The notes under the pieces are model-generated. The model searched no databases, had not been told where the DNA came from, and worked only from the letters and a program-made list of their open reading frames with translations. DNA of 64,000 bases, taken from the sequence record PZ452598.1; one strand, 5' to 3'. The first letter of the stretch is position 1. Each line of letters starts with the position of its first letter. The stretch comes from a phage. Of this stretch, positions 5,501-62,689 are shown one piece after another. The translations under genes and the position numbers were made by a program.

Positions 5501-6928
5501 TTATTTAAATTGTTCAGTAACGTCTTCAACTACTTCATATTGGCAGGTACGCATTTTAGCATCGTTGTAATCAATCGGAATTGATACTACATCGCGAGGA
5601 TGAACTTTAACTTTTACAACTCGGCTGGTTGAACTACCAAAGTGACGAATATAAGATTTAGAACACACATGCAAACCACGAGAACAAGTTTGTGTATCAT
5701 CGTCATTCACACGAGTACGTGGCATTTTAACTACTTTACCCGGACTGTTATCAAAGGTGTTTGAGTGACAGTCAAAGTAATTGCTGCGAACTACTTTCCA
5801 AGCATAGAAGTAACCATCTTCTGTAATTTCAATATCGTTTGCTACCAAGAAATCAAAGAGTCGAGATACCGCTTTTTGGCTTGGGTTTTCCAACAGATTT
5901 TCCAAGAACGGAAAATAAAATTCAAAGTTTTCGCCTTTTTCCATCGAGTCAAGAATACGATCAACCAAACCAGACCGCAATTCAATATTTTGATAGAACA
6001 AGCTTCCACCTTCAATTCGAACATCGCCGGAAATATATTTTTCAACAGCACGACGAACATTAATTTTTTGTGCCGCTTCTTCCAACTTATCCGCTACAAG
6101 CAGATTAAGAATTTCCTGGAAGTTTGAATGAGTATTAGGAGTTGCGTTATAAGTTACGCCATCAACAGTAATTGAAATGAATTTTTTAGATGCATTCCAA
6201 ATAATGTCAGATTTAGCAACTGGAGCAATAACTGCATCGCTATTAACTTTAACTGTAATATCACCGCTAATAGTCATCAAAATCCGGAAAATAATCATTT
6301 CGCGGTCAAGACCATTAATGATAGCCAAATCTTTGAACGGTCGCATGATATAAGAAACTTCATAAGCAAAGTTTCTAAAGTCTTTTTCTTCAACTGGAAC
6401 TACGATTTCAATACCAGTTTTATCATCTGGACCCATTTCTTTTACGAATGTAGGTTTAATCTGTGGACCATCACCATCCATGTAAGCTACATAACCACGA
6501 ATTTCACCTTTATGATACGAAGTAATACTAAACGTATCAGTATAACTAAACGGAGATTTAGAACCTAAACCAAATCCGCCAATAAAGTCATTAGATTCAG
6601 CTTTAGATGAACTGAAGTATGAATTATACAACCCAGGAGAATTATCATCACCTTGAATATCAAAATCACTCATACCCGGACCAAAATCTCGACAAACAAA
6701 TCGTGGGTCTAAACGTCCAGGAACTTGTATGATAAATTTTTCAGGATTTCCATTAAGTGCATGAGCATCAATCATGTTAGTAATCAATTCACGGACTACT
6801 GCGCGAATCTTGTTTGTATACAAATCAGATGACAGAATTTTAAATACTTTAGGAGATGCTGTGATGCTAAATGCTTTTGATTTAGAACCATTACCAAGAA
6901 TTGTTTCTTTTTCAGTGGTGATAATCAT
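5501..6928 (-). CDS. rII-locus protein (475 aa): rIIA-like N-terminal GHKL ATPase domain; atypical length, possible in-frame rIIA-rIIB fusion
   Basis: GHKL motifs [26 protein letters not shown] in first ~125 aa; sits at the rIIA position next to rIIA.1 and gene 60 but is about 250 aa shorter than canonical rIIA. Confidence 0.7.
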
Positions 6929-16632: not shown

Positions 16633-17235
16633 TTATAGATTAAATCCTTCAAAATCAAGAGTATAGATAGTGTATGTTGAACACTTTTTATACTCATATC
16701 TATCTGCAATTCTAAATACACTTCCAGCTGGTATCATTACTTCTTGTTCATCTGAAACTAATTCCATATTACGATAACGATGACTATCCGGAAACTTAAA
16801 GTTTGGATTGTATTCTTTACAGCGTAGAGCTTTTATAGCATACTCCTGGAAATTGAATACCATAGGAGCTTTGAATTCAAAAATAACTTGTGTGTTATAC
16901 TCTAAACCAGAAGCAAAATGTAGAGCTATATTTTTATCATATGAAGCTGATACGACTTTATCAAATGTAATAATATCAATTCCTTGATTTAATACTTGTT
17001 TAGTCTCAGCTGGAACACCTCTCCAAAGAGGTTTATCGTTTGGAACCAAACGAGATTTGATTATTTCATTTAACCAAGAATGGTCATCTGGTTTATTAGT
17101 AATACAATGAATTAAAAGTTCAATTTCAGATAAATTAAACCCTTCAGAAAGTAATTCTTCACGAATAGAAGCACGCACCGATGCATCCATTGATTTTATT
17201 TTAAAATCTTTTAGTTGCATTACTGAGTATTTCAT
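16633..17235 (-). CDS. modA: ADP-ribosyltransferase ModA (200 aa)
   Basis: R / S-x-S / Q-x-E type ART motifs (LWRGV, VVSASYD, EQEVMIP); 200 aa. Confidence 0.75.
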   Translation of the reverse strand: MKYSVMQLKDFKIKSMDASVRASIREELLSEGFNLSEIELLIHCITNKPDDHSWLNEIIKSRLVPNDKPLWRGVPAETKQVLNQGIDIITFDKVVSASYDKNIALHFASGLEYNTQVIFEFKAPMVFNFQEYAIKALRCKEYNPNFKFPDSHRYRNMELVSDEQEVMIPAGSVFRIADRYEYKKCSTYTIYTLDFEGFNL

Positions 17236-17855
17236 TCAACTACCTCAATATCATAAACTTTAAATGTTCCAAATGAATCGTGTAATTTTTCTTTTGAAAT
17301 AGAAGTTATTTTATACTTTCCAATTGGAATCATCCATTCTTGTTCACGCACAATCATCATTAAGTTATCAGTACGCTCTGAATCTAATCCATCAGTATCT
17401 TCATACGTGTACTTAAACTCAGTATTAGGAGAAGAAAGTATAATATCGCTGATATGGTCAGAATAATTAAAAGCTTTATCAGTTTTTAAACGAAGTATTG
17501 TTTCAGTGAAATATTCAGCATAAGAAAAAGAACACGCTGTATGCAAACTAGTAGTAAATGAATCTACCCTGTTCGTTGAAAACACTTCTCCAACTTGTAA
17601 ATCTTTAATGAGTTCTTTTGTCGATTTTGATATACCACGATATAATTGATAAGGCGATTTAGTTAAATGCTTTTTAATGATTTCATTTAAATGCTTATGA
17701 AGAGCTTCATTCTTTTTGGCTTCCATACATTGCCAAAGAACAGACTGCTCAAAGTCAGTAAATTTTTCACAGACCTTTTTATACATATCATATTGAAAAT
17801 CAACGCTTTCAGCTTTTATAGATAACTGTTCAACATCTGCAAGATTAATAATCAT
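17232..17855 (-). CDS. modB: ADP-ribosyltransferase ModB (207 aa)
   Basis: ART motifs (YRGIS, FSTN, EQEWMIP); 207 aa, tandem with ModA. Confidence 0.75.
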   Translation of the reverse strand: MIINLADVEQLSIKAESVDFQYDMYKKVCEKFTDFEQSVLWQCMEAKKNEALHKHLNEIIKKHLTKSPYQLYRGISKSTKELIKDLQVGEVFSTNRVDSFTTSLHTACSFSYAEYFTETILRLKTDKAFNYSDHISDIILSSPNTEFKYTYEDTDGLDSERTDNLMMIVREQEWMIPIGKYKITSISKEKLHDSFGTFKVYDIEVVE

Positions 17856-53662: not shown

Positions 53663-54585
53663 TTCAATACCTCAATAGCATTACGTAAACCATTTGCTTT
53701 GGCGGTTAAATCCTTAAGAACTTTAGTATGCTCTTCAATCTGTTTTTCAACTTCAATCAAACGGGTACTGAGATATTCGCGTTCTTCTTTCATAGTATCA
53801 TTCCCATGATTGGGCTTTGGCGTAGGTTTAAATTTATTAGGGTCCTTTAACTTAATAACAACTTTAGTTTCAAACAGTGAAAGACCATAATTCGTATTAT
53901 CATCAAAGGATTCAACTACGTCCATTTTAGACAATAACGTACGAAGATTATAAGTCAAAGAACGAATCGTTTTATTATGTTTATTAGCTTCACATGGTTT
54001 CATATATGGAAGATTTTTATATATTTCATGCGGAGCACAAACAATAATTAACAATTCAAATGGTCCATTCTGTGATGATGGAATGAATTTAGCCGTAACC
54101 CAATCTTTTACATTTACATTAATAGTACGATCATCGCCATGACAAAACAGTCTACGAGAATGCTTAAAAAGCATATTCACATTATTATTAAATTCGTGTG
54201 AAAACTCACTGGCAAATTTTTCTTTACTATCTTTAGAAAACCATTCTTCTAAATAAGTTCTTTTCACGTCGTTAATAATATTAAATGTAACAACATTATC
54301 ATTTGATACATTAGTCTCAATGTAGCTTGGATACATAAATTTTTTAACATTATTAACAGCTATCACAGAAGATAGTAATCGGGAACGTTTGAACCACTCG
54401 AGCAAAGAACCAAGAGAATGTGAATACGCATTTTGTGTATCTTTACAAATATGGTTTTCCCATCCAATATAGTCTAAAAAATCACGAAGAATATTATTGA
54501 TTACTTCTCTATGTCCTTTCTGATAATCACGATGTTTAGTAATAAGACTGTCAAAATAATCAATATAATGTTTACGAGTTTTCAT
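53659..54585 (-). CDS. hypothetical protein (308 aa), coiled-coil C-terminus; paralog family member 1
   Basis: ORF track; C-terminal heptad-like tail. Confidence 0.6.
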   Translation of the reverse strand: MKTRKHYIDYFDSLITKHRDYQKGHREVINNILRDFLDYIGWENHICKDTQNAYSHSLGSLLEWFKRSRLLSSVIAVNNVKKFMYPSYIETNVSNDNVVTFNIINDVKRTYLEEWFSKDSKEKFASEFSHEFNNNVNMLFKHSRRLFCHGDDRTINVNVKDWVTAKFIPSSQNGPFELLIIVCAPHEIYKNLPYMKPCEANKHNKTIRSLTYNLRTLLSKMDVVESFDDNTNYGLSLFETKVVIKLKDPNKFKPTPKPNHGNDTMKEEREYLSTRLIEVEKQIEEHTKVLKDLTAKANGLRNAIEVLK

Positions 54586-54639
54586 GTTCTTCTCACTTGG
54601 TTAATGATTTATACTCCGAGCCATCCTTGGCTTTAAATT

Positions 54640-55692
54640 TTACTTAATTAACTGCAAAGCTTGTTCTAGACGATCAAGACGATTAACGGATTCTTCCCAA
54701 ATCTTTTTAGCCTGCTCATATTCTTTCTGCGCTTTATTAGAAATTTCTAGAACTTCTTTATAAGCTTTTTCTAGTGCAATAACTTCTGGACGAATTTCTA
54801 TCGGTTCAGGTGAATCATCAAGACATTCCATTAGTTCCTCAAGGGTAGTTTCTTCTTTAGGAGTATTCACAATTTCATCACATTTTTGTTGGTAAATTTC
54901 TTTACTAGTAGGTGAATAAGCACATTTCACTTCACGAAGGCTAATTACGAGTTTATATCCTTCCCAACCGCATATATTCTTAAAAGGATATGTATGAATA
55001 TTTTCTACTGTTTCCATACAAAGTAATGCGGTCTCTAATTGACGAGTTATAGTGCTAGCAATTGAGAAAAATTTATTAATATTCTTTTGGTTAGTTTCTG
55101 GTGTAAAAAATCCATAATTCACAAAAATAGATACTTTATTTTTATCAAGTTCATATTCTTTTATGATAATCATATCAGAAGCCAAAGGATGAATTTGACG
55201 ATAATCGCCATAACATAATTTAGAAGCTGATTTTAGAATTTGCTTCTTGAAAAGTCTGAAATTACTAATCCAACGACGAGTAAAAATATTCTCAGGGTCT
55301 TCTTTATTATTGAGATGATAAGAATTAACATCACCGAACCAATTATATCCTACTACATCTTTAGTTCGTTTAATTTCTTTCCCAAAATTACCAAGAATAT
55401 CCCGATTAACCAAATATGAAAGAAGACGAGACTCTTTAAAGGTTTTCTTGATAACATCTTTATCTACACGGCTAGAAATTTTACGAATTTCATGAATAAA
55501 TTTAGTAGAAGAAACAATACTTGCATCAACACTATTGAGCCACTGATTGATAATAGAAAGAACGCTATTTTGGCCAAACATCGGTATAGCTTTATCATCA
55601 ATAACGCTATTGAATGATTTGATATATTCGTTACGAGTCATATTAATCTCCTCAGTAGAAAGTAAGAACATTATACCACATCCTTGTGGCAA
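54640..55692 (-). CDS. hypothetical protein (350 aa), paralog family member 2
   Basis: Shares FRLFKKQILKSASKL-type segment and coiled-coil tail with neighbours. Confidence 0.6.
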   Translation of the reverse strand: MPQGCGIMFLLSTEEINMTRNEYIKSFNSVIDDKAIPMFGQNSVLSIINQWLNSVDASIVSSTKFIHEIRKISSRVDKDVIKKTFKESRLLSYLVNRDILGNFGKEIKRTKDVVGYNWFGDVNSYHLNNKEDPENIFTRRWISNFRLFKKQILKSASKLCYGDYRQIHPLASDMIIIKEYELDKNKVSIFVNYGFFTPETNQKNINKFFSIASTITRQLETALLCMETVENIHTYPFKNICGWEGYKLVISLREVKCAYSPTSKEIYQQKCDEIVNTPKEETTLEELMECLDDSPEPIEIRPEVIALEKAYKEVLEISNKAQKEYEQAKKIWEESVNRLDRLEQALQLIK

Positions 55693-55702
55693 AGTAAACT
55701 AG
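55668..55702 (-). promoter_or_regulatory. early promoter (-35 GTTTAC 55695-55700, -10 TATAAT 55670-55675)
   Basis: Consensus early promoter on minus strand. Confidence 0.55.
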
Positions 55703-56721
55703 TTCAGTGCATTTAGTGCATTGTTCAGTTTAGAACGTTGCTTTGTCAGATTTTGAACCCTTGACTGAGCTTGTTCTAACGCCTTTTCAGCTTCTAGCAC
55801 TTCATTGGTCGCTTTAACTAATTCAGCATCTACTGCCTTAAGAGACTTCTCAATCGCATCCGCGTGCCATTTTTCAACAGGTTTAAGACTTGGATTTTCA
55901 ACAGGAAGAAAATTCACTTTATTGAATTTCCATGCATCTTTATTACCTGAGCTATACATCCAAAATTTAGGATCGTTTGATAAGTAATTAGATAAATTTA
56001 AGTTATCTTGCACTTCTTGCTTTTTCTCTTGTGTGACTTCGTCCTTTCTCAAAAATTCATATTTAAATGAAACGATCATATCAAGTTCATATGATGTTGT
56101 ATCTAACTTAAATCGTTCAAAACGAGGTAAAATCTTAGATTGAACAGCAGCAACAACATCCATATACTTAAATGCTTCTGTCAACTGCGATTTAAGGCAT
56201 TCGCAAATTGAAAGAGAATTTTTTGTATTAGGTTTAAAGCTAATTCGTGCAGTTCTATTATTTTCTTTTAACGGTCTTACTTCCATCTGAAGAGTATAAC
56301 CATCAAATTTCAGATTCTTTAAGTTAATGTCAGAGCCTTTTAATCGACTAGCAGTAGACAAAATTTGCTTTAATTGTCTACGGAACAGAGCAATAAATCT
56401 CCATTCAATACGATAATGATTTGGATTGAAAAATCCAGATGATAAATCGACCTTACTTTGACCAACGCCTTGAACAAATAGAGGATTTTTATAATCAATA
56501 GTTTTACAGAAATCGGTGAGCTGTTCACGAGCAGTCATTTGAGTAATATACCCTGCTTTACTAAAATTACGCACCCATTCACTGCTATTCGTATACTTAA
56601 AGTGATGAATAACACGATTAACTTTATCAGGGTCTAAATTATTTTCACACAAAAATGTCATAACATCACGAGTATAGCTGGCATTACGAACCATATCTTC
56701 AATTTGAGAACGAGTTTTCAT
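55699..56721 (-). CDS. hypothetical protein (340 aa), paralog family member 3
   Basis: Segment ALFRRQLKQILSTASRL and coiled-coil tail. Confidence 0.6.
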   Translation of the reverse strand: MKTRSQIEDMVRNASYTRDVMTFLCENNLDPDKVNRVIHHFKYTNSSEWVRNFSKAGYITQMTAREQLTDFCKTIDYKNPLFVQGVGQSKVDLSSGFFNPNHYRIEWRFIALFRRQLKQILSTASRLKGSDINLKNLKFDGYTLQMEVRPLKENNRTARISFKPNTKNSLSICECLKSQLTEAFKYMDVVAAVQSKILPRFERFKLDTTSYELDMIVSFKYEFLRKDEVTQEKKQEVQDNLNLSNYLSNDPKFWMYSSGNKDAWKFNKVNFLPVENPSLKPVEKWHADAIEKSLKAVDAELVKATNEVLEAEKALEQAQSRVQNLTKQRSKLNNALNALN

Positions 56722-56729
56722 GGTGTTCC

Positions 56730-57644
56730 TTAAGATTTAAGTAAATCAACAATTTTAATTAACTTTTCACGCTCAGATTTAGCTTTACTACTCAATCCAG
56801 ATAGTCTGAAAATTTCATCATCATATTGTTGAATAGAAATATTCAGCTCTTCAATTTGCTTATTAAAATAATCAATTTGTTCAGAATGTTTTTCGTTACT
56901 ACGAACTGGTACAGGTTTTGTAGGCAATTTAGTTGAACTGGATTCATTCGGGCGATAAATTAAAATGCAATTTGAACCAATCGGGCATTTAGCACCAGAT
57001 GAATATTCTAACGTTCCAGCTTCTTTTAAAACTTCAAAAGCTAAACAGAGATGATGCCCCATATTAACATAATCAGTAGAGCGAGCTCTGATGTAATAAT
57101 CATCTCCACGAGTGCTAAATTTAAAGCATTTAAGGTCTTCTGTATTATTAGTTTTAAAAATCATTTGTTTATCTAGACCTTTAGCCAATCGAGCACCTAA
57201 TGCTAATAATCGTCGTTGATTTTCCCACAAATCTGCGATCATTTGGTCAAATGATAATTTCGGCATTAGCCGACCATAAAGGTCATATCCTTTATTATAA
57301 TTGCGAAGGATTTCACTCGCATTAATACGAGACAACGCTCCAATTTTATTAAGGGCTTTCATAATACGATTAGATAAACTCATTCCAGACCCGTTTGTTC
57401 GCTGTAAATGTTTTTCTAATCCAAATCCAATATCAACTTTAAATTTATCTAAAATTTCAGCATGAACATCTCTGTCAATAACATTCAAATCCAAAGTTGG
57501 GTTAAATCTATGAAAAAATTTATCTGGCTCTCCACGACGTAAAACAGTCCATTCATTCATCATTTTTTTATTAACTAAAGATTTAATTACTGCGTTGACA
57601 TTATTAATTACTACTGACATATTTTCCTCACTCAATTTTACCAA
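56730..57644 (-). CDS. hypothetical protein (304 aa), paralog family member 4
   Basis: Segment LWENQRRLLALGARLAKG and coiled-coil tail. Confidence 0.6.
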   Translation of the reverse strand: MVKLSEENMSVVINNVNAVIKSLVNKKMMNEWTVLRRGEPDKFFHRFNPTLDLNVIDRDVHAEILDKFKVDIGFGLEKHLQRTNGSGMSLSNRIMKALNKIGALSRINASEILRNYNKGYDLYGRLMPKLSFDQMIADLWENQRRLLALGARLAKGLDKQMIFKTNNTEDLKCFKFSTRGDDYYIRARSTDYVNMGHHLCLAFEVLKEAGTLEYSSGAKCPIGSNCILIYRPNESSSTKLPTKPVPVRSNEKHSEQIDYFNKQIEELNISIQQYDDEIFRLSGLSSKAKSEREKLIKIVDLLKS

Positions 57645-58029
57645 TTACGCGGAATAAGATTGAACAGACTATATAAGTACCACATATAGATTGAACTAAT
57701 GCCATTCCAAAGAACCAAACAATATTATCAAACCATGTCTGTTTTACGTCGAAAGGACGTAAACTTACAGTAATATTATCACCTTTTTCTATTGAAGAAT
57801 ACATCTCTGGGGAAATATATTCACTAAATCTATAACCGTCTTTGAGTTCATATACAGCAATAAACGATAAACTAGACCCCTTTCCTTGAGTTCCTGTAAG
57901 GGTATTAACTACAGTAACATCATAATCTTTATAATGCATATAATCATTAATTGCGTAATAACCATATGCAATTACTATACATAAACAACATATCAATAAA
58001 TTCAATCTTTTAATTATCAACTGTTTCAT
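57628..58029 (-). CDS. membrane protein (133 aa)
   Basis: Two hydrophobic helices at N and C termini. Confidence 0.55.
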   Translation of the reverse strand: MKQLIIKRLNLLICCLCIVIAYGYYAINDYMHYKDYDVTVVNTLTGTQGKGSSLSFIAVYELKDGYRFSEYISPEMYSSIEKGDNITVSLRPFDVKQTWFDNIVWFFGMALVQSICGTYIVCSILFRVIGKIE

Positions 58030-58084
58030 AATAATCTCAATTAAAAGGGCTTAGAACCATTATACCATCCTTGGTATAAAGCGG

Positions 58085-58612
58085 TTATGCGAGTACCGTA
58101 TTTAACCGTTCTTCAAACTTCCGAAGAGTGTTCTGGCGTTCAGCTCTTTGCTTTTTGTAAGTTTCAATACGCTCTGAAATGAGAGTGTATCGTTCATTTA
58201 CTGATTCTTTCATAAAATCAGGAATTTCACGAGAAGCTTTAATCTCGTCAAATTTATCAATAACAGCTTGCTCTTCAGCAATTAAGTTATCATACATCAA
58301 AATATCTTTCTTGATGAACTCAATATCTTCTTGAGTTACACGAGATAATTTAGATGCTTTATCCTTTTTGTACTGTTCGTTAGTATCACGAGACCAGTGT
58401 AATGTACGATTTTTATTCGTATTCTTGTAAATTTCTACAATACCAATCTCATCGATAATAACGATCCAATTCCAACGGGATTTGTAAATTTGTCCTCCAT
58501 TAACAGTGATTTCACCTCCGATTGAGATGTCATTAAAGAACTTGCTTTGTGCTTCTGATTTAAATTTACCATCGTTGTAATTTACCAGGTTGAAAATATC
58601 TTTAGCGTTCAT
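58085..58612 (-). CDS. hypothetical protein (about 175 aa from Met at 58610-58612)
   Basis: ORF track 58085..58657; start moved to Met with GGAGGA SD downstream of promoter. Confidence 0.55.
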   Translation of the reverse strand: MNAKDIFNLVNYNDGKFKSEAQSKFFNDISIGGEITVNGGQIYKSRWNWIVIIDEIGIVEIYKNTNKNRTLHWSRDTNEQYKKDKASKLSRVTQEDIEFIKKDILMYDNLIAEEQAVIDKFDEIKASREIPDFMKESVNERYTLISERIETYKKQRAERQNTLRKFEERLNTVLA

Positions 58613-58637
58613 TTTGTGTTCCTCCGTAGTTGATAGT

Positions 58638-58672
58638 TGTATAGTACCACAGCTCAAACGGAAAGTAAACCG
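58638..58672 (-). promoter_or_regulatory. early promoter with conserved leader cassette (-35 GTTTAC 58665-58670)
   Basis: Same GTTTAC...GGTACTATACAACTATCAACTAC module as other copies. Confidence 0.5.
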
Positions 58673-58679
58673 GTAAAAT

Positions 58680-58704
58680 GAAAAAAAGTCTCCCGAAGGA
58701 GACT
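58680..58704 (-). terminator. intrinsic terminator
   Basis: AGUCUCC-UUCG-GGAGACU hairpin followed by UUUUUUU on minus-strand RNA. Confidence 0.65.
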
Positions 58705-58708
58705 AATG

Positions 58709-59095
58709 TTATTCGAGGGAAAGAAGATACTTACTCTGGTAAAACATTCCAGTAATATCATCTATCGTGCTTTGGATGGCTGGAGGCATTTCTTTATAAA
58801 TGCTGTTAGATTGGTCTAGTATGCGATCAATCATTTTAATTGTGTCGGTAGGAAGTTTACTGGCATCTGGAATTGAAGGCGTGTATTTTCGACCAGAATA
58901 CCCCAAATATTGCTCACCAAATTTATCAATCAAATCTGGCAACTCGGAAAAAATAAAATCGTATGCTTTGTGTCTAGCATAACTTTTAGTTTCAAAATGT
59001 GCAGAATGAAAATAAGCTTGTGCAGCCATTAATAAACCTAAGTATTCATCTGCCTTTGAAGGTTTTCCACTTTGTGAAAAGTCGCTGAATTTCAT
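58709..59095 (-). CDS. hypothetical protein (128 aa)
   Basis: ORF track. Confidence 0.55.
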   Translation of the reverse strand: MKFSDFSQSGKPSKADEYLGLLMAAQAYFHSAHFETKSYARHKAYDFIFSELPDLIDKFGEQYLGYSGRKYTPSIPDASKLPTDTIKMIDRILDQSNSIYKEMPPAIQSTIDDITGMFYQSKYLLSLE

Positions 59096-60235: not shown

Positions 60236-60424
60236 TTAGTCCTTAGTTAAATTTTCTAAATATGTTTCTAAATCATTTTCAGCTTTATCGATAGATTTTA
60301 CTAATTCGTAATATGTTTCGGCATCTCCATATTCAGAAGATATTTCAAAAGACAAATCCTTTTCTAAACTAATAATTTCACCAACTAAAAATAATATTTC
60401 GTTCTTTTGTTCGCGAGTAATCAT
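60236..60424 (-). CDS. hypothetical protein (62 aa), tandem paralog
   Basis: ORF track; similar to next ORF. Confidence 0.45.
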   Translation of the reverse strand: MITREQKNEILFLVGEIISLEKDLSFEISSEYGDAETYYELVKSIDKAENDLETYLENLTKD

Positions 60425-60612
60425 AAGGAATTTATATAATCAATGAGTTCTTGTTCTTTATTATCGAATTCTTTAGAAAGTTCTTCGTACTCGTTTGCGC
60501 TAAAAGGACCGCATTCATTACAAACTTTTTCCAATTCACTATTTTTATCCATAACTTCGTGGATAAGAGAAAAGAGTGTGTCTTTTTGTTCTTTGCTTAA
60601 ACTCATAACCAT
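60421..60612 (-). CDS. hypothetical protein (63 aa), tandem paralog
   Basis: ORF track. Confidence 0.45.
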   Translation of the reverse strand: MVMSLSKEQKDTLFSLIHEVMDKNSELEKVCNECGPFSANEYEELSKEFDNKEQELIDYINSL

Positions 60613-60830
60613 GTCACCTTTAAGCAGTATTCTTCTACATGCTGTTTACGACCTTTCTTATCAATAAAGGTATATTCAACGAATGTTCCAATGTAGTCTT
60701 TATCTACATCATGTGGACTATTAATTGGACATTTAGTGCGACAAATGCGTTCCCATTGACGAATAATTACTGCCTTATTCTTTGGGTCATATGGATGTGG
60801 ATAATGTATATTCATAATAATGGTTCCCAA
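60603..60830 (-). CDS. hypothetical protein (75 aa)
   Basis: ORF track. Confidence 0.45.
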   Translation of the reverse strand: MGTIIMNIHYPHPYDPKNKAVIIRQWERICRTKCPINSPHDVDKDYIGTFVEYTFIDKKGRKQHVEEYCLKVTWL

Positions 60831-61279
60831 TCAACAATCACAATTTCTAATTTAGAGGAATATGTATCTAAAATCCCCTCAATAATATCCCAGTTCCCTT
60901 TACCTATGCCTGCACCAATCCTAGGCATATAGATTGTAGGTTTAATCAGTTTATTTTCACCAAACTCATTTAATTCTAACATACAATTCATTAAAGCGGA
61001 ATACTCAAAATTTGGCCCTGGTTGAAATTGAGTATAAAGATTGAAGCAGTAAGCTTTATGAGTCCTAAAGTATTTTTCATAGACTGAGTAAGAACCGAGT
61101 TTAGTTACATCACCCCATTCAGTCTGTAATTTATCAGCTTCCAAAATTTTAGGGAAAGCTTTGGTTAATTGACCCGCTACGCCTGAACCCATAGTATGAA
61201 AACAATTACATCCATGTGCAATATTTTTACCTTCAGCGAAAAGGGCGACAATATCGCCCTTGATATATTTTACAATCAT
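60812..61279 (-). CDS. macrodomain protein, TARG1/DarG-like putative ADP-ribosyl hydrolase (155 aa)
   Basis: Motifs KGDIVALF...IAHGCNC...MGSGVAGQL and MPRIGAGIGKGNW parallel the TARG1/DarG macro fold. Confidence 0.65.
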   Translation of the reverse strand: MIVKYIKGDIVALFAEGKNIAHGCNCFHTMGSGVAGQLTKAFPKILEADKLQTEWGDVTKLGSYSVYEKYFRTHKAYCFNLYTQFQPGPNFEYSALMNCMLELNEFGENKLIKPTIYMPRIGAGIGKGNWDIIEGILDTYSSKLEIVIVDWEPLL

Positions 61280-61623
61280 CTAGTACTCAATCCTCGATTA
61301 TAAGAATCTACCAAACGGTCAACCATTGAATGACAAGCGGCTTTATCTTTCTCCTCCGCAACTGAACATTCTAAGGTATTCCACTTTTTAGCATATCGTT
61401 TTAACAATGTATCGTTTTTGTATCTGCTTGATTTATCTCTTTCTCCGTCTTTATATGCATATATTAATTTCTGTGCAAATTCAGCTTGGCATGCCTTATT
61501 TTTCCCACAATAATCTGCCGCAGTGCGGTTTACATATTCTCTAATTTCAGTATATGATGTATCTGCTGACGCAGAAGCAGAAAATGAAATTAATCCTATA
61601 CATAAAACCAAAATTTTAGTCAT
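61276..61623 (-). CDS. secreted hypothetical protein (115 aa)
   Basis: Cleavable signal peptide MTKILVLCIGLISFSASASA. Confidence 0.55.
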   Translation of the reverse strand: MTKILVLCIGLISFSASASADTSYTEIREYVNRTAADYCGKNKACQAEFAQKLIYAYKDGERDKSSRYKNDTLLKRYAKKWNTLECSVAEEKDKAACHSMVDRLVDSYNRGLSTR

Positions 61624-62655: not shown

Positions 62656-62689
62656 AAATTATACCACAGTCAAGAGGAAAAGTAAACAG
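62656..62689 (-). promoter_or_regulatory. early promoter for regB (-35 GTTTAC 62682-62687, -10 TATAAT 62658-62663)
   Basis: Consensus early promoter on minus strand. Confidence 0.55.

What the first reader, a model, noticed from the sequence alone, without database searches (positions are those of the whole stretch)
60812..61279. TARG1/DarG-like macrodomain gene in a phage that also encodes ADP-ribosyltransferases
The 155-aa ORF has the two glycine-rich loops typical of ADP-ribose-binding macrodomains of the TARG1/DarG type (IAHGCNC...MGSGVAGQL and MPRIGAGIGKGNW). The same window encodes the ADP-ribosyltransferases ModA and ModB (16633..17855). A macrodomain could reverse phage or host ADP-ribosylation, or counter ADP-ribosylation-based defences such as DarT-type DNA modification. 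It sits among secreted and small unknown proteins near tk and regB.
Basis: inference. Interest (0 to 1): 0.65.

Follow-up and report, generated by a model that had tools for sequence, protein, structure and literature searches.

The report
Phage T4 anti-DarT macrodomain gene tk.4

Summary

My refinement: Tk.4 is not a lysine-type DarG/TARG1 enzyme. The catalytic Lys (TARG1 K84, DarG K80) is an invariant Gln (Q84) in all 157 aligned viral and bacterial homologues, and TARG1 D125 is Gly or Ala. This matches SCO6735, a Gln85 enzyme that cleaves thymidine-linked ADP-ribose from DNA. Tk.4 scores 30 bits on NCBI's DarG model (cut-off 250); PhiKZ "AdfM" scores 138 and keeps the lysine. The two phage "AdfM" proteins therefore belong to different subfamilies. 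No evidence links Tk.4 to ModA or ModB.

The parts
60812..61279 (-). tk.4 (adfM) coding sequence, 155 aa stand-alone macrodomain
   Evidence: ORF; 100% identical to T4 tk.4 / NP_049723.1; Pfam Macro; AF2 pLDDT 95.5
61166..61222 (-). Residues 20-38, IAHGCNCFHTMGSGVAGQL: first substrate-binding loop, with near-invariant H22 and invariant G23, N25, G33, A35
   Evidence: Alignment A1; viral and bacterial tallies. H22 and N25 align to SCO6735 H24 and N27; N27S is nearly dead
61133..61135 (-). Codon of Asp49 (EADK), invariant and specific to this family; the aligned residue is Tyr in DarG, SCO6735, BT1257 and ALC1. Role unknown
   Evidence: D in 77/77 viral and 79/79 bacterial homologues; for the other families
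61028..61042 (-). Residues 80-84, NLYTQ. Gln84 (codon 61028..61030) occupies the position of the catalytic Lys of TARG1 (K84) and DarG (K80) and of the essential Gln85 of SCO6735
   Evidence: HMM alignment to TARG1; hhalign to Mtb DarG and SCO6735; joint alignment A2; Q in 78/78 viral and 79/79 bacterial homologues
60890..60928 (-). Residues 118-130, MPRIGAGIGKGNW: second glycine-rich (diphosphate-binding) loop. G126 sits at the position of TARG1 D125
   Evidence: position 126 is Ala or Gly and never Asp
61276..61623 (-). vs (valyl-tRNA synthetase modifier), immediately upstream; its stop codon overlaps the tk.4 start (ATGA)
60603..60815 (-). tk.3 (DUF7202), immediately downstream; its start overlaps the tk.4 stop, so the genes are packed like an operon
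62658..62686 (-). Best sigma-70-like promoter match on the coding strand (TTTACT-17-TATAAT with TG), just upstream of the early gene regB. A possible early promoter for regB-vs.1-vs-tk.4. Weak evidence
   Evidence: 10/12 match, but the number of promoter-like sites in the region is not above the shuffled expectation. No minus-strand terminator-like site lies between regB and tk. RegB is an early product (PMC2988021)

Best explanation
tk.4 encodes AdfM, a stand-alone macrodomain enzyme made by T4 to neutralise the bacterial DarTG2 defence. On infection, DarT2 attaches ADP-ribose to thymidines in single-stranded DNA (TNTC motif) and blocks replication. Tk.4 most likely binds the ADP-ribose in its two-glycine-loop cleft and hydrolyses the thymine-ribose bond, restoring a normal base. 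It has no DarT-binding C-terminal domain, so it acts on the product rather than as a classical antitoxin partner. Its active site is not the lysine type of DarG and TARG1. It has the His22/Asn25/Gln84 arrangement of Streptomyces SCO6735, where the Gln positions the distal ribose and a water molecule does the chemistry. Shown here: fold, class, residue pattern, conservation, distribution and gene context. Shown by others: the genetic requirement on DarTG2 hosts. Inferred: hydrolysis of thymidine-linked ADP-ribose, the Gln-dependent mechanism and early expression.
For: Identity and fold. Genetics: tk.4 is the single significant hit on a DarTG2 host, and a clean knockout is sensitised (bioRxiv 10.1101/2025.11.20.689424). 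Active site: Q84 aligns to TARG1 K84, Mtb DarG K80 and SCO6735 Q85. SCO6735 cleaves dT-ADPr on DNA, Q85A/E are dead and N27S is nearly dead (PMC9411070). H22, N25, N80, Y82, Q84 and both Gly loops are invariant or nearly so in 46 database, 79 viral and 79 bacterial homologues, which indicates selection on a catalytic site. Every tested member of this macrodomain class (DarG, TARG1, SCO6735) removes thymine- or uracil-linked ADP-ribose. Another phage macrodomain, PhiKZ gp104, removes DarT2's mark from a TNTC oligonucleotide in vitro (PMC13309987). Guilt by association: in 6 bacterial loci from two lineages, a NADAR gene (the guanine-ADPr DNA eraser family; Pfam E=2e-52) directly abuts the Tk.4-type gene on the same strand. 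This mirrors T4 carrying both AdfN and AdfM. Size: 155 aa, with no DarG C-terminal domain.
Against: No biochemical assay of T4 Tk.4 was found in the searched literature, and the genetic evidence is a preprint. SCO6735's DNA-positioning lysines K34 and K89 are not conserved (Tk.4 has S32 and G88). The family is mildly acidic (pI about 5.9), although the active PhiKZ gp104 is too (pI 5.05). ALC1's macrodomain also has Gln at this position and is a non-catalytic binder, so Gln alone does not prove catalysis. The catalytically dead SCO6735 Q85A still inhibits DarT by interaction, so a binding contribution cannot be excluded. Early expression rests on a weak promoter match.
Confidence: 0.75

Rival explanations
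1. Tk.4 protects T4 mainly without catalysis, by binding and blocking DarT2 or by shielding ADP-ribosylated DNA, as the phage factors AdfA and AdfB are proposed to do.
For: The catalytically dead SCO6735 Q85A still inhibits DarT in vitro, more strongly than DarG K80A or TARG1 K84A (PMC9411070). ICP1 AdfB acts through direct interaction with DarT (PMC11481870). Tk.4 lacks the canonical catalytic Lys.
Against: The ribose-contacting residues (N25, Q84, both Gly loops) are invariant in 200+ homologues, including bacterial chromosomal copies with no DarT nearby. That pattern fits an enzyme rather than a binder of one fast-evolving toxin. Tk.4 has no DarG-like C-terminal DarT-binding domain. The PhiKZ macrodomain is catalytic.
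Confidence: 0.1
2. Tk.4's main job is to reverse protein ADP-ribosylation, whether by T4's own Alt/ModA/ModB or by host enzymes, so as to tune or recycle those marks.
For: modA and modB are in the same window. TARG1 and SCO6735 also hydrolyse Glu/Asp-linked protein ADP-ribose.
Against: Alt, ModA and ModB modify arginine. Arg-ADP-ribose is removed by ARH/DraG-type hydrolases, not by TARG1-like macrodomains (established knowledge). There is no genomic linkage (about 44 kb apart). tk.4 is dispensable on plain E. coli K-12 and becomes conditionally required only with DarTG2. The family occurs in many phages and bacteria, and no association with ModA/ModB-type genes was seen in the bacterial neighbourhood census.
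Confidence: 0.04
3. Tk.4 is a small-molecule enzyme, either an ADP-ribose-1''-phosphate phosphatase like yeast Poa1p (the legacy 'phosphatase' annotation) or an O-acetyl-ADP-ribose deacetylase.
Against: These names are carried over from the domain name and were not tested. Poa1p has Ser where Tk.4 has the invariant Gln. Such activities would not explain the DarTG2-specific phenotype. T4's RNA repair genes (Pnk, Rnl1) do not generate Appr>p (established knowledge).
Confidence: 0.04
4. Tk.4 is a broader nucleic-acid eraser whose relevant substrates also include uracil-linked ADP-ribose on RNA or marks made by other, still unknown defence transferases. DarT2 would be only the case found so far.
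For: TARG1, DarG and SCO6735 all remove uracil-ADPr from RNA, SCO6735 efficiently (PMC13036486). The family is in 2,847 of 50,697 phage records and in many bacteria without DarT nearby, which is wider than one might expect for a single-system counter-measure.
Against: The mRNA ADP-ribosyltransferase system CmdTAC still defends strongly against wild-type T4, which carries tk.4 (PMC11618068). No data exist on RNA substrates for Tk.4.
Confidence: 0.07

Closest known systems
SCO6735 (Streptomyces coelicolor; PDB 5e3b) and its close homologue BT1257 (PDB 2fg1/2afc)
   Different: Only 20-28% identical. The motifs differ (HGCNCFHTMG / NLYTQ against H[VI]CND[LI]GGWGKG / NMIGQ). SCO6735's DNA-positioning K34 and K89 are absent. 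Tk.4 has a family-specific invariant Asp49 where SCO6735 has Tyr. SCO6735 is basic (pI 9.7) and Tk.4 is acidic (pI 5.9). One is a phage counter-defence gene, the other a DNA-damage-induced bacterial gene.
DarG2 antitoxin macrodomain (M. tuberculosis 5m3i, T. aquaticus 5m31/5m3e)
   Different: The catalytic K80 is replaced by Gln. There is no C-terminal DarT-binding domain and no adjacent darT. Tk.4 scores 30 bits on the NCBIfam DarG equivalog model (cut-off 250), where the DarG macrodomain alone scores 260.
PhiKZ gp104 'AdfM' (chimallivirus anti-DarT2 macrodomain; PMC13309987)
   Same: Phage-encoded stand-alone macrodomain that counters DarTG2, and it was given the same name. Its biochemistry (removal of DarT2's mark, reduced by N23A) is the best proxy for what Tk.4 does.
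   Different: A different subfamily. gp104 is 35% identical to Mtb DarG (E=3e-31), keeps the FPTK lysine and scores 138 bits on the DarG model. Against Tk.4 it gives only a 23-residue local BLAST match (E=0.005). It is imported into the phage nucleus, which T4 does not have.
Human TARG1/OARD1 (PDB 4j5r)
   Different: The catalytic dyad K84/D125 is Q84/G126 in Tk.4. TARG1 has Ser where Tk.4 has N25.
T4 AdfN (gene 30.3), a NADAR anti-DarTG1 factor
   Same: Same phage and same strategy: an orphan antitoxin-like eraser of DNA ADP-ribosylation (PMC11825919). NADAR and Tk.4-type genes are adjacent in some bacteria.
   Different: Unrelated fold. AdfN acts on guanine-ADPr (DarT1), not on thymine-ADPr.

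Membership tests
Macro domain (Pfam PF01661) | Profile score above the curated gathering cut-off | tested here: met
   27.7 bits against a cut-off of 22, E=2.9e-6, covering profile positions 2-113 of 118
Macro domain (Pfam PF01661) | Three-layer alpha/beta/alpha macro fold with two glycine-rich ligand loops | tested here: met
ALC1-like (TARG1/DarG/Poa1p/SCO6735) macrodomain class | Closer in structure and sequence to this class than to MacroD, viral, macroH2A or PARG classes | tested here: met
TARG1 (terminal ADP-ribose glycohydrolase) | Catalytic Lys84 that forms the covalent intermediate | tested here: not met
   Aligned residue is Gln84, invariant in the family
TARG1 (terminal ADP-ribose glycohydrolase) | Asp125 partner of the catalytic dyad | tested here: not met
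   Aligned residue is Gly126 in T4; Ala or Gly, never Asp, in 156 homologues
DarG antitoxin (NCBIfam NF048014 equivalog) | Score at or above the curated cut-off (250 bits) | tested here: not met
   Tk.4 30.3 bits; Mtb DarG macrodomain alone 260; PhiKZ gp104 138; SCO6735 28.6. The PADLOC DarG model gives 36, 265 and 133 bits for Tk.4, Mtb DarG and gp104
DarG antitoxin | Catalytic Lys80 | tested here: not met
   hhalign places Q84 on K80, NLYTQ against NFPTK
DarG antitoxin | C-terminal DarT-binding domain and an adjacent darT gene | tested here: not met
   The protein is 155 aa and the match covers only positions 2-146 of the 338-position DarG model. The flanking genes are vs and tk.3, and no DarT-like domain was found among the Pfam-scanned flanking genes tk to regB
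SCO6735-type (Gln-type) thymidine-ADPr hydrolase | Gln at the catalytic-Lys position, held by the conserved Asn, with the nearby His | tested here: met
   Q84, N25 and H22 align to Q85, N27 and H24. Q85A/E and N27S abolish or nearly abolish activity in SCO6735
SCO6735-type (Gln-type) thymidine-ADPr hydrolase | DNA-positioning lysines K34 and K89 | tested here: not met
   Aligned residues are S32 (family A/S/G) and G88. K60 is the only strongly conserved basic residue
SCO6735-type (Gln-type) thymidine-ADPr hydrolase | Hydrolysis of thymidine-linked ADP-ribose on ssDNA | not testable with these tools
   Needs an enzyme assay. No published assay of T4 Tk.4 was found
AdfM (phage anti-DarT factor, macrodomain; functional definition) | Phage macrodomain gene required for growth on DarTG2-expressing hosts | not testable with these tools
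   Reported for T4 tk.4 itself by transposon screen and clean knockout (bioRxiv 10.1101/2025.11.20.689424)
Poa1p-type ADP-ribose-1''-phosphate phosphatase | Sequence and structure similarity, including the H-x-C-N-C motif | tested here: inconclusive

The most novel reading that the evidence does not exclude
T4 Tk.4 is the founding phage member of a distinct, lysine-independent clade of ALC1-like macrodomains, defined by invariant H22, N25, D49, N80, Y82 and Q84. The clade arose separately from DarG, unlike PhiKZ 'AdfM'. It is one of the commonest anti-defence enzymes of large lytic phages (about 5.6% of phage records). It also serves free-living bacteria as an orphan immunity gene against DarT-like toxins, sometimes in a two-eraser cassette with NADAR. 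The family-specific invariant Asp49 would supply the general base that SCO6735 lacks, giving a third catalytic solution within this fold.
Probability: 0.3. Interest if true: 0.5.

Novelty: already known. Interest (0 to 1): 0.3.

Why it matters
DarTG is a widespread anti-phage system, and DarG is also a drug target in M. tuberculosis. Knowing which phage genes neutralise it explains host range and matters when choosing or engineering therapeutic phages. The gene-to-function link for tk.4 is already published, so this finding adds no new discovery. What this analysis adds is mechanistic framing. The T4 enzyme should be studied with SCO6735 as the model rather than DarG or TARG1, because it has Gln instead of Lys. 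The two phage proteins both called AdfM are not orthologues. And the family is far more widespread, in phages and as orphan bacterial genes, than a T4-specific curiosity would be.

Tried and rejected
1. I looked for a functional link to ModA/ModB. The genes are about 44 kb apart in the window, neither matches any Pfam family, and their arginine chemistry does not fit this macrodomain class. Rejected as the main function.

2. I tested whether Tk.4 is simply a captured DarG macrodomain. Rejected: 30 bits on the DarG model against a 250-bit cut-off, no catalytic Lys and no C-terminal domain.

3. I looked for DarT next to bacterial homologues. None recurred among 79 loci, where the neighbours are mostly housekeeping genes. 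This census clustered neighbours by similarity and Pfam-checked only a few cluster representatives, so a rare DarT neighbour could have been missed.

4. Two apparent bacterial-MAG homologues (P0072, P0118) turned out to lie on T4-like phage contigs, so they say nothing about a cellular origin.

5. I tried to read 3D distances (D49 to Q84) from the model, but its coordinates are not exposed to the scripting tool, so the role of D49 stays open.

7. The promoter scan gave no enrichment over shuffled sequence, so early expression is only inferred.

8. Literature searches for a biochemical assay of T4 Tk.4 found none.

Full report
IDENTITY OF THE WINDOW AND THE ORF. Megablast of the surrounding 3.4 kb gives 100% identity to many phage T4 records. 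Another T4 record already calls it 'macro domain-containing protein'. The ORFs at 16633..17235 and 17232..17855 are T4 modA and modB.

IS IT A MACRODOMAIN, AND OF WHICH KIND? Pfam Macro is hit above its gathering score (27.7 against 22 bits), and PHROG 335 is hit at 1.3e-65. A single-sequence search of the PDB finds BT1257, yeast Poa1p, SCO6735, DarG and TARG1. A profile built from 46 homologues raises these to E values between 7e-18 and 2e-11, while the coronavirus and alphavirus macrodomains stay near 5e-3.

WHAT IS ALREADY KNOWN. The A1pp/macro match of tk.4 orthologues was published in 2006 (PMC1524935). A bioRxiv preprint of November 2025 (10.1101/2025.11.20.689424) screened a T4 transposon library on E. 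coli expressing DarTG2 and found one significant hit, tk.4. A clean knockout became sensitive to DarTG2, and the authors renamed the gene adfM (anti-DarT factor, macrodomain). They inferred, without biochemistry, that it removes ADP-ribose from DNA.

A 2026 Cell Reports paper (PMC13309987) independently gave the same name to PhiKZ gp104. It showed in vitro that gp104 removes the mark DarT2 places on a TNTC oligonucleotide, that an N23A mutant is impaired, and that the protein rescues cells from DarT2.

THE CATALYTIC SITE IS NOT THE DarG/TARG1 TYPE. In the 46-sequence family alignment the invariant residues are G23, N25, G33, A35, D49, Y82, Q84, P119, I121, G122 and G124. The profile alignment to TARG1 puts Q84 on the catalytic K84 and G126 (family consensus Ala) on D125. 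hhalign to the M. tuberculosis DarG macrodomain (98% probability) aligns NLYTQ with NFPTK, so Q84 falls on the catalytic K80. I supplied that DarG sequence myself, and it matches PDB 5m3i exactly.

The Gln is not a T4 peculiarity. It is present in 78 of 78 aligned IMG/VR homologues and in 79 of 79 homologues from bacterial genomes, all fetched with search patterns that do not include this motif. The D125-equivalent position is always Ala or Gly.

The literature supplies a precedent. SCO6735 of Streptomyces coelicolor has Gln85 at the structural position of DarG K80 and TARG1 K84, and it cleaves thymidine-linked ADP-ribose from DNA. Q85A and Q85E kill it, N27S nearly kills it, and it is proposed to use an activated water molecule (PMC9411070).

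I recovered the real SCO6735 sequence by querying the PDB with BT1257, which turns out to be its close homologue (E=1e-53). The chain numbering reproduces the residues named in the paper. In a joint alignment the catalytic position is Q in the Tk.4 family, SCO6735, BT1257 and ALC1, and K in TARG1, both DarGs and PhiKZ gp104. hhalign of the family to SCO6735 (E=2.2e-15) is slightly better than to DarG (1.6e-13), and clearly better than to PhiKZ gp104 (1.1e-9).

On NCBI's curated DarG equivalog model (cut-off 250 bits) the DarG macrodomain alone scores 260, PhiKZ gp104 scores 138, Tk.4 scores 30.3 and SCO6735 scores 28.6. PADLOC's DarG model behaves the same way. PhiKZ gp104 is 35% identical to DarG (E=3e-31) but gives only a 23-residue local match to Tk.4.

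The conclusion is that Tk.4 works like a DarG macrodomain but is not a member of the DarG or TARG1 families in the strict sense. Its active site is of the SCO6735 type, and the two phage 'AdfM' proteins belong to different subfamilies. The similarity to SCO6735 has limits. Overall identity is 20-28%. SCO6735's DNA-positioning K34 and K89 are absent. The Tk.4 family also has its own invariant Asp49, where DarG, SCO6735, BT1257 and ALC1 have Tyr. ALC1 shows that Gln at this site is compatible with a non-catalytic binder, but ALC1 also lacks the Asn and the glycine-rich second loop, both of which Tk.4 keeps.

DISTRIBUTION AND CONTEXT. tblastn finds homologues in 2,847 of 50,697 phage records (2,465 covering at least 80% of the protein). 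They span T4-like phages and phages of Klebsiella, Salmonella, Pseudomonas, Vibrio, Acinetobacter, Campylobacter and Bacillus. Two 'bacterial MAG' homologues lie on T4-like phage contigs.

A scan of 185,579 species genomes found 367 relatives. They include copies on true chromosomes (Ruegeria, Pelagimonas, Desulfobacter, Stieleria, Hymenobacter), at 32-43% identity. These copies are stand-alone (median 154 aa) and keep H22, N25, D49, N80, Y82, Q84 and W130 in 79 of 79 cases. Their neighbours are mostly lineage-specific housekeeping genes, and no DarT-like partner recurs.

In six loci from two unrelated lineages (Bacteroidales L140 and L155; Ruegeria L098, L122, L142 and L148), a NADAR gene directly abuts or overlaps the macrodomain gene on the same strand (Pfam NADAR E=2e-52). 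NADAR proteins are the erasers of guanine-linked DNA ADP-ribosylation, and they include T4's own AdfN (PMC11825919). This pairing is independent support for a DNA-ADP-ribose eraser role.

In T4 the start codon of tk.4 overlaps the vs stop, and its stop overlaps the tk.3 start. The best promoter-like site on the coding strand lies just upstream of regB, an early gene (PMC2988021). No terminator-like site lies between regB and tk on that strand. The promoter scan is not enriched over shuffled sequence, so early expression is an inference.

SPECIFICITY. TARG1, DarG and SCO6735 also remove uracil-linked ADP-ribose from RNA (PMC13036486), so Tk.4 may as well. The mRNA ADP-ribosyltransferase system CmdTAC still defends strongly against wild-type T4 (PMC11618068), so Tk.4 is not a universal eraser. 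T4's Alt, ModA and ModB modify arginine, a linkage not known to be cleaved by this macrodomain class (established knowledge). I found nothing linking tk.4 to them. The family's acidic pI (median 5.9) does not argue against a DNA substrate, because the biochemically active PhiKZ gp104 has pI 5.05.

VERDICT. The novelty rating is 'already known'. Three points remain open and are modestly interesting: the Lys-independent, SCO6735-like active site with a family-specific Asp49; the fact that two non-orthologous phage proteins share the name AdfM; and the wide spread of this clade, including bacterial NADAR-macro cassettes. No enzyme assay of T4 Tk.4 was found, so the hydrolytic mechanism remains an inference, to which I give about 0.75.

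NOTE ON THE WINDOW. It is T4 but is not colinear with any T4 record in the collection. It carries an in-frame rIIA-rIIB fusion deletion and a 4.8-kb deletion running from nrdC.9 to mobD.5. Neither deletion touches tk.4.

Noticed in passing
window 5501..6928 (-), junction at about 6262..6274: The window lacks T4 positions 168,739-168,903 and 1-1,535 (1,700 bp). This fuses rIIA codons 1-218 in frame to rIIB from codon 56, giving a 475-aa ORF. It looks like a classical r1589-type rII A-B fusion deletion (that name is from memory), so the source is probably a laboratory T4 strain.
   Followed up: yes
window 58632..58652 (junction): A clean deletion of about 4.8 kb relative to all T4 records (T4 53,926-58,741). 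It removes nrdC.9, nrdC.10, nrdC.11, mobD and mobD.1-mobD.5, with about 21 bp shared at the junction. Every listed T4 record aligns here in two pieces.
   Followed up: yes
T4 tk.4 (window 60812..61279) compared with PhiKZ gp104 (sequence from PMC13309987): Two papers gave the name AdfM independently to proteins that are not orthologues. PhiKZ gp104 is DarG-like (35% identity, FPTK lysine, 138 bits on the DarG model). T4 Tk.4 is the Gln type (30 bits) and shares only a 23-residue BLAST match with gp104.
   Followed up: yes
L140 4520-5441, L155 4520-5450, L098 4463-5459, L142 4481-5456, L148 4532-5456, L122 4453-5456: In Bacteroidales and Ruegeria genomes a NADAR gene (guanine-ADPr eraser family) abuts or overlaps a Tk.4-type macrodomain gene on the same strand. 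This may be a two-eraser cassette against DNA ADP-ribosylation, analogous to T4 carrying AdfN plus AdfM.
   Followed up: partly
window 61133..61135 (Asp49 codon): Asp49 (EADK) is invariant in all 200+ family members, but the aligned residue is Tyr in DarG, SCO6735, BT1257 and ALC1. Its role is unknown. It might be a family-specific catalytic or DNA-contact residue.
   Followed up: partly
PDB 2fg1/2afc (BT1257) compared with 5e3b (SCO6735): The structural-genomics 'protein of unknown function' BT1257 from Bacteroides thetaiotaomicron is a close homologue of SCO6735 (phmmer E=1e-53) and has the same NMIGQHG motif. It is probably also a thymidine-ADPr DNA hydrolase.
   Followed up: partly
L002 and L003 (contigs from GCA_051648945.1 and GCA_051660865.1): Contigs deposited as bacterial MAGs (Bacilli, Culicoidibacterales) carry T4-type genes such as polynucleotide kinase and dCMP deaminase, plus Rnl1, a Dda-like helicase and a T4 spanin in L002, and a DNA ligase and an SLT-domain gene in L003. 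They are phage contigs binned with bacteria.
   Followed up: partly
window 60236..60612 (-) and 60603..60815 (-): tk.1 and tk.2 are paralogues (both Pfam DUF7438) and tk.3 is DUF7202. All are of unknown function and are tightly packed with tk.4.
   Followed up: no
window 16633..17855 (-): ModA and ModB, well-known T4 ADP-ribosyltransferases with visible R-S-ExE motifs, match no Pfam family at E<=0.01.
   Followed up: no
Phage records NC_048074.1 (Acinetobacter phage B09_Aci01-1) and NC_055913.1 (Vibrio phage Gary): In some other phages the annotated features under the Tk.4-homologue match also include NAD-related genes (nicotinamide phosphoribosyltransferase, ribose-phosphate pyrophosphokinase). 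This hints at clustering of counter-measures related to NAD and ADP-ribose.
   Followed up: no
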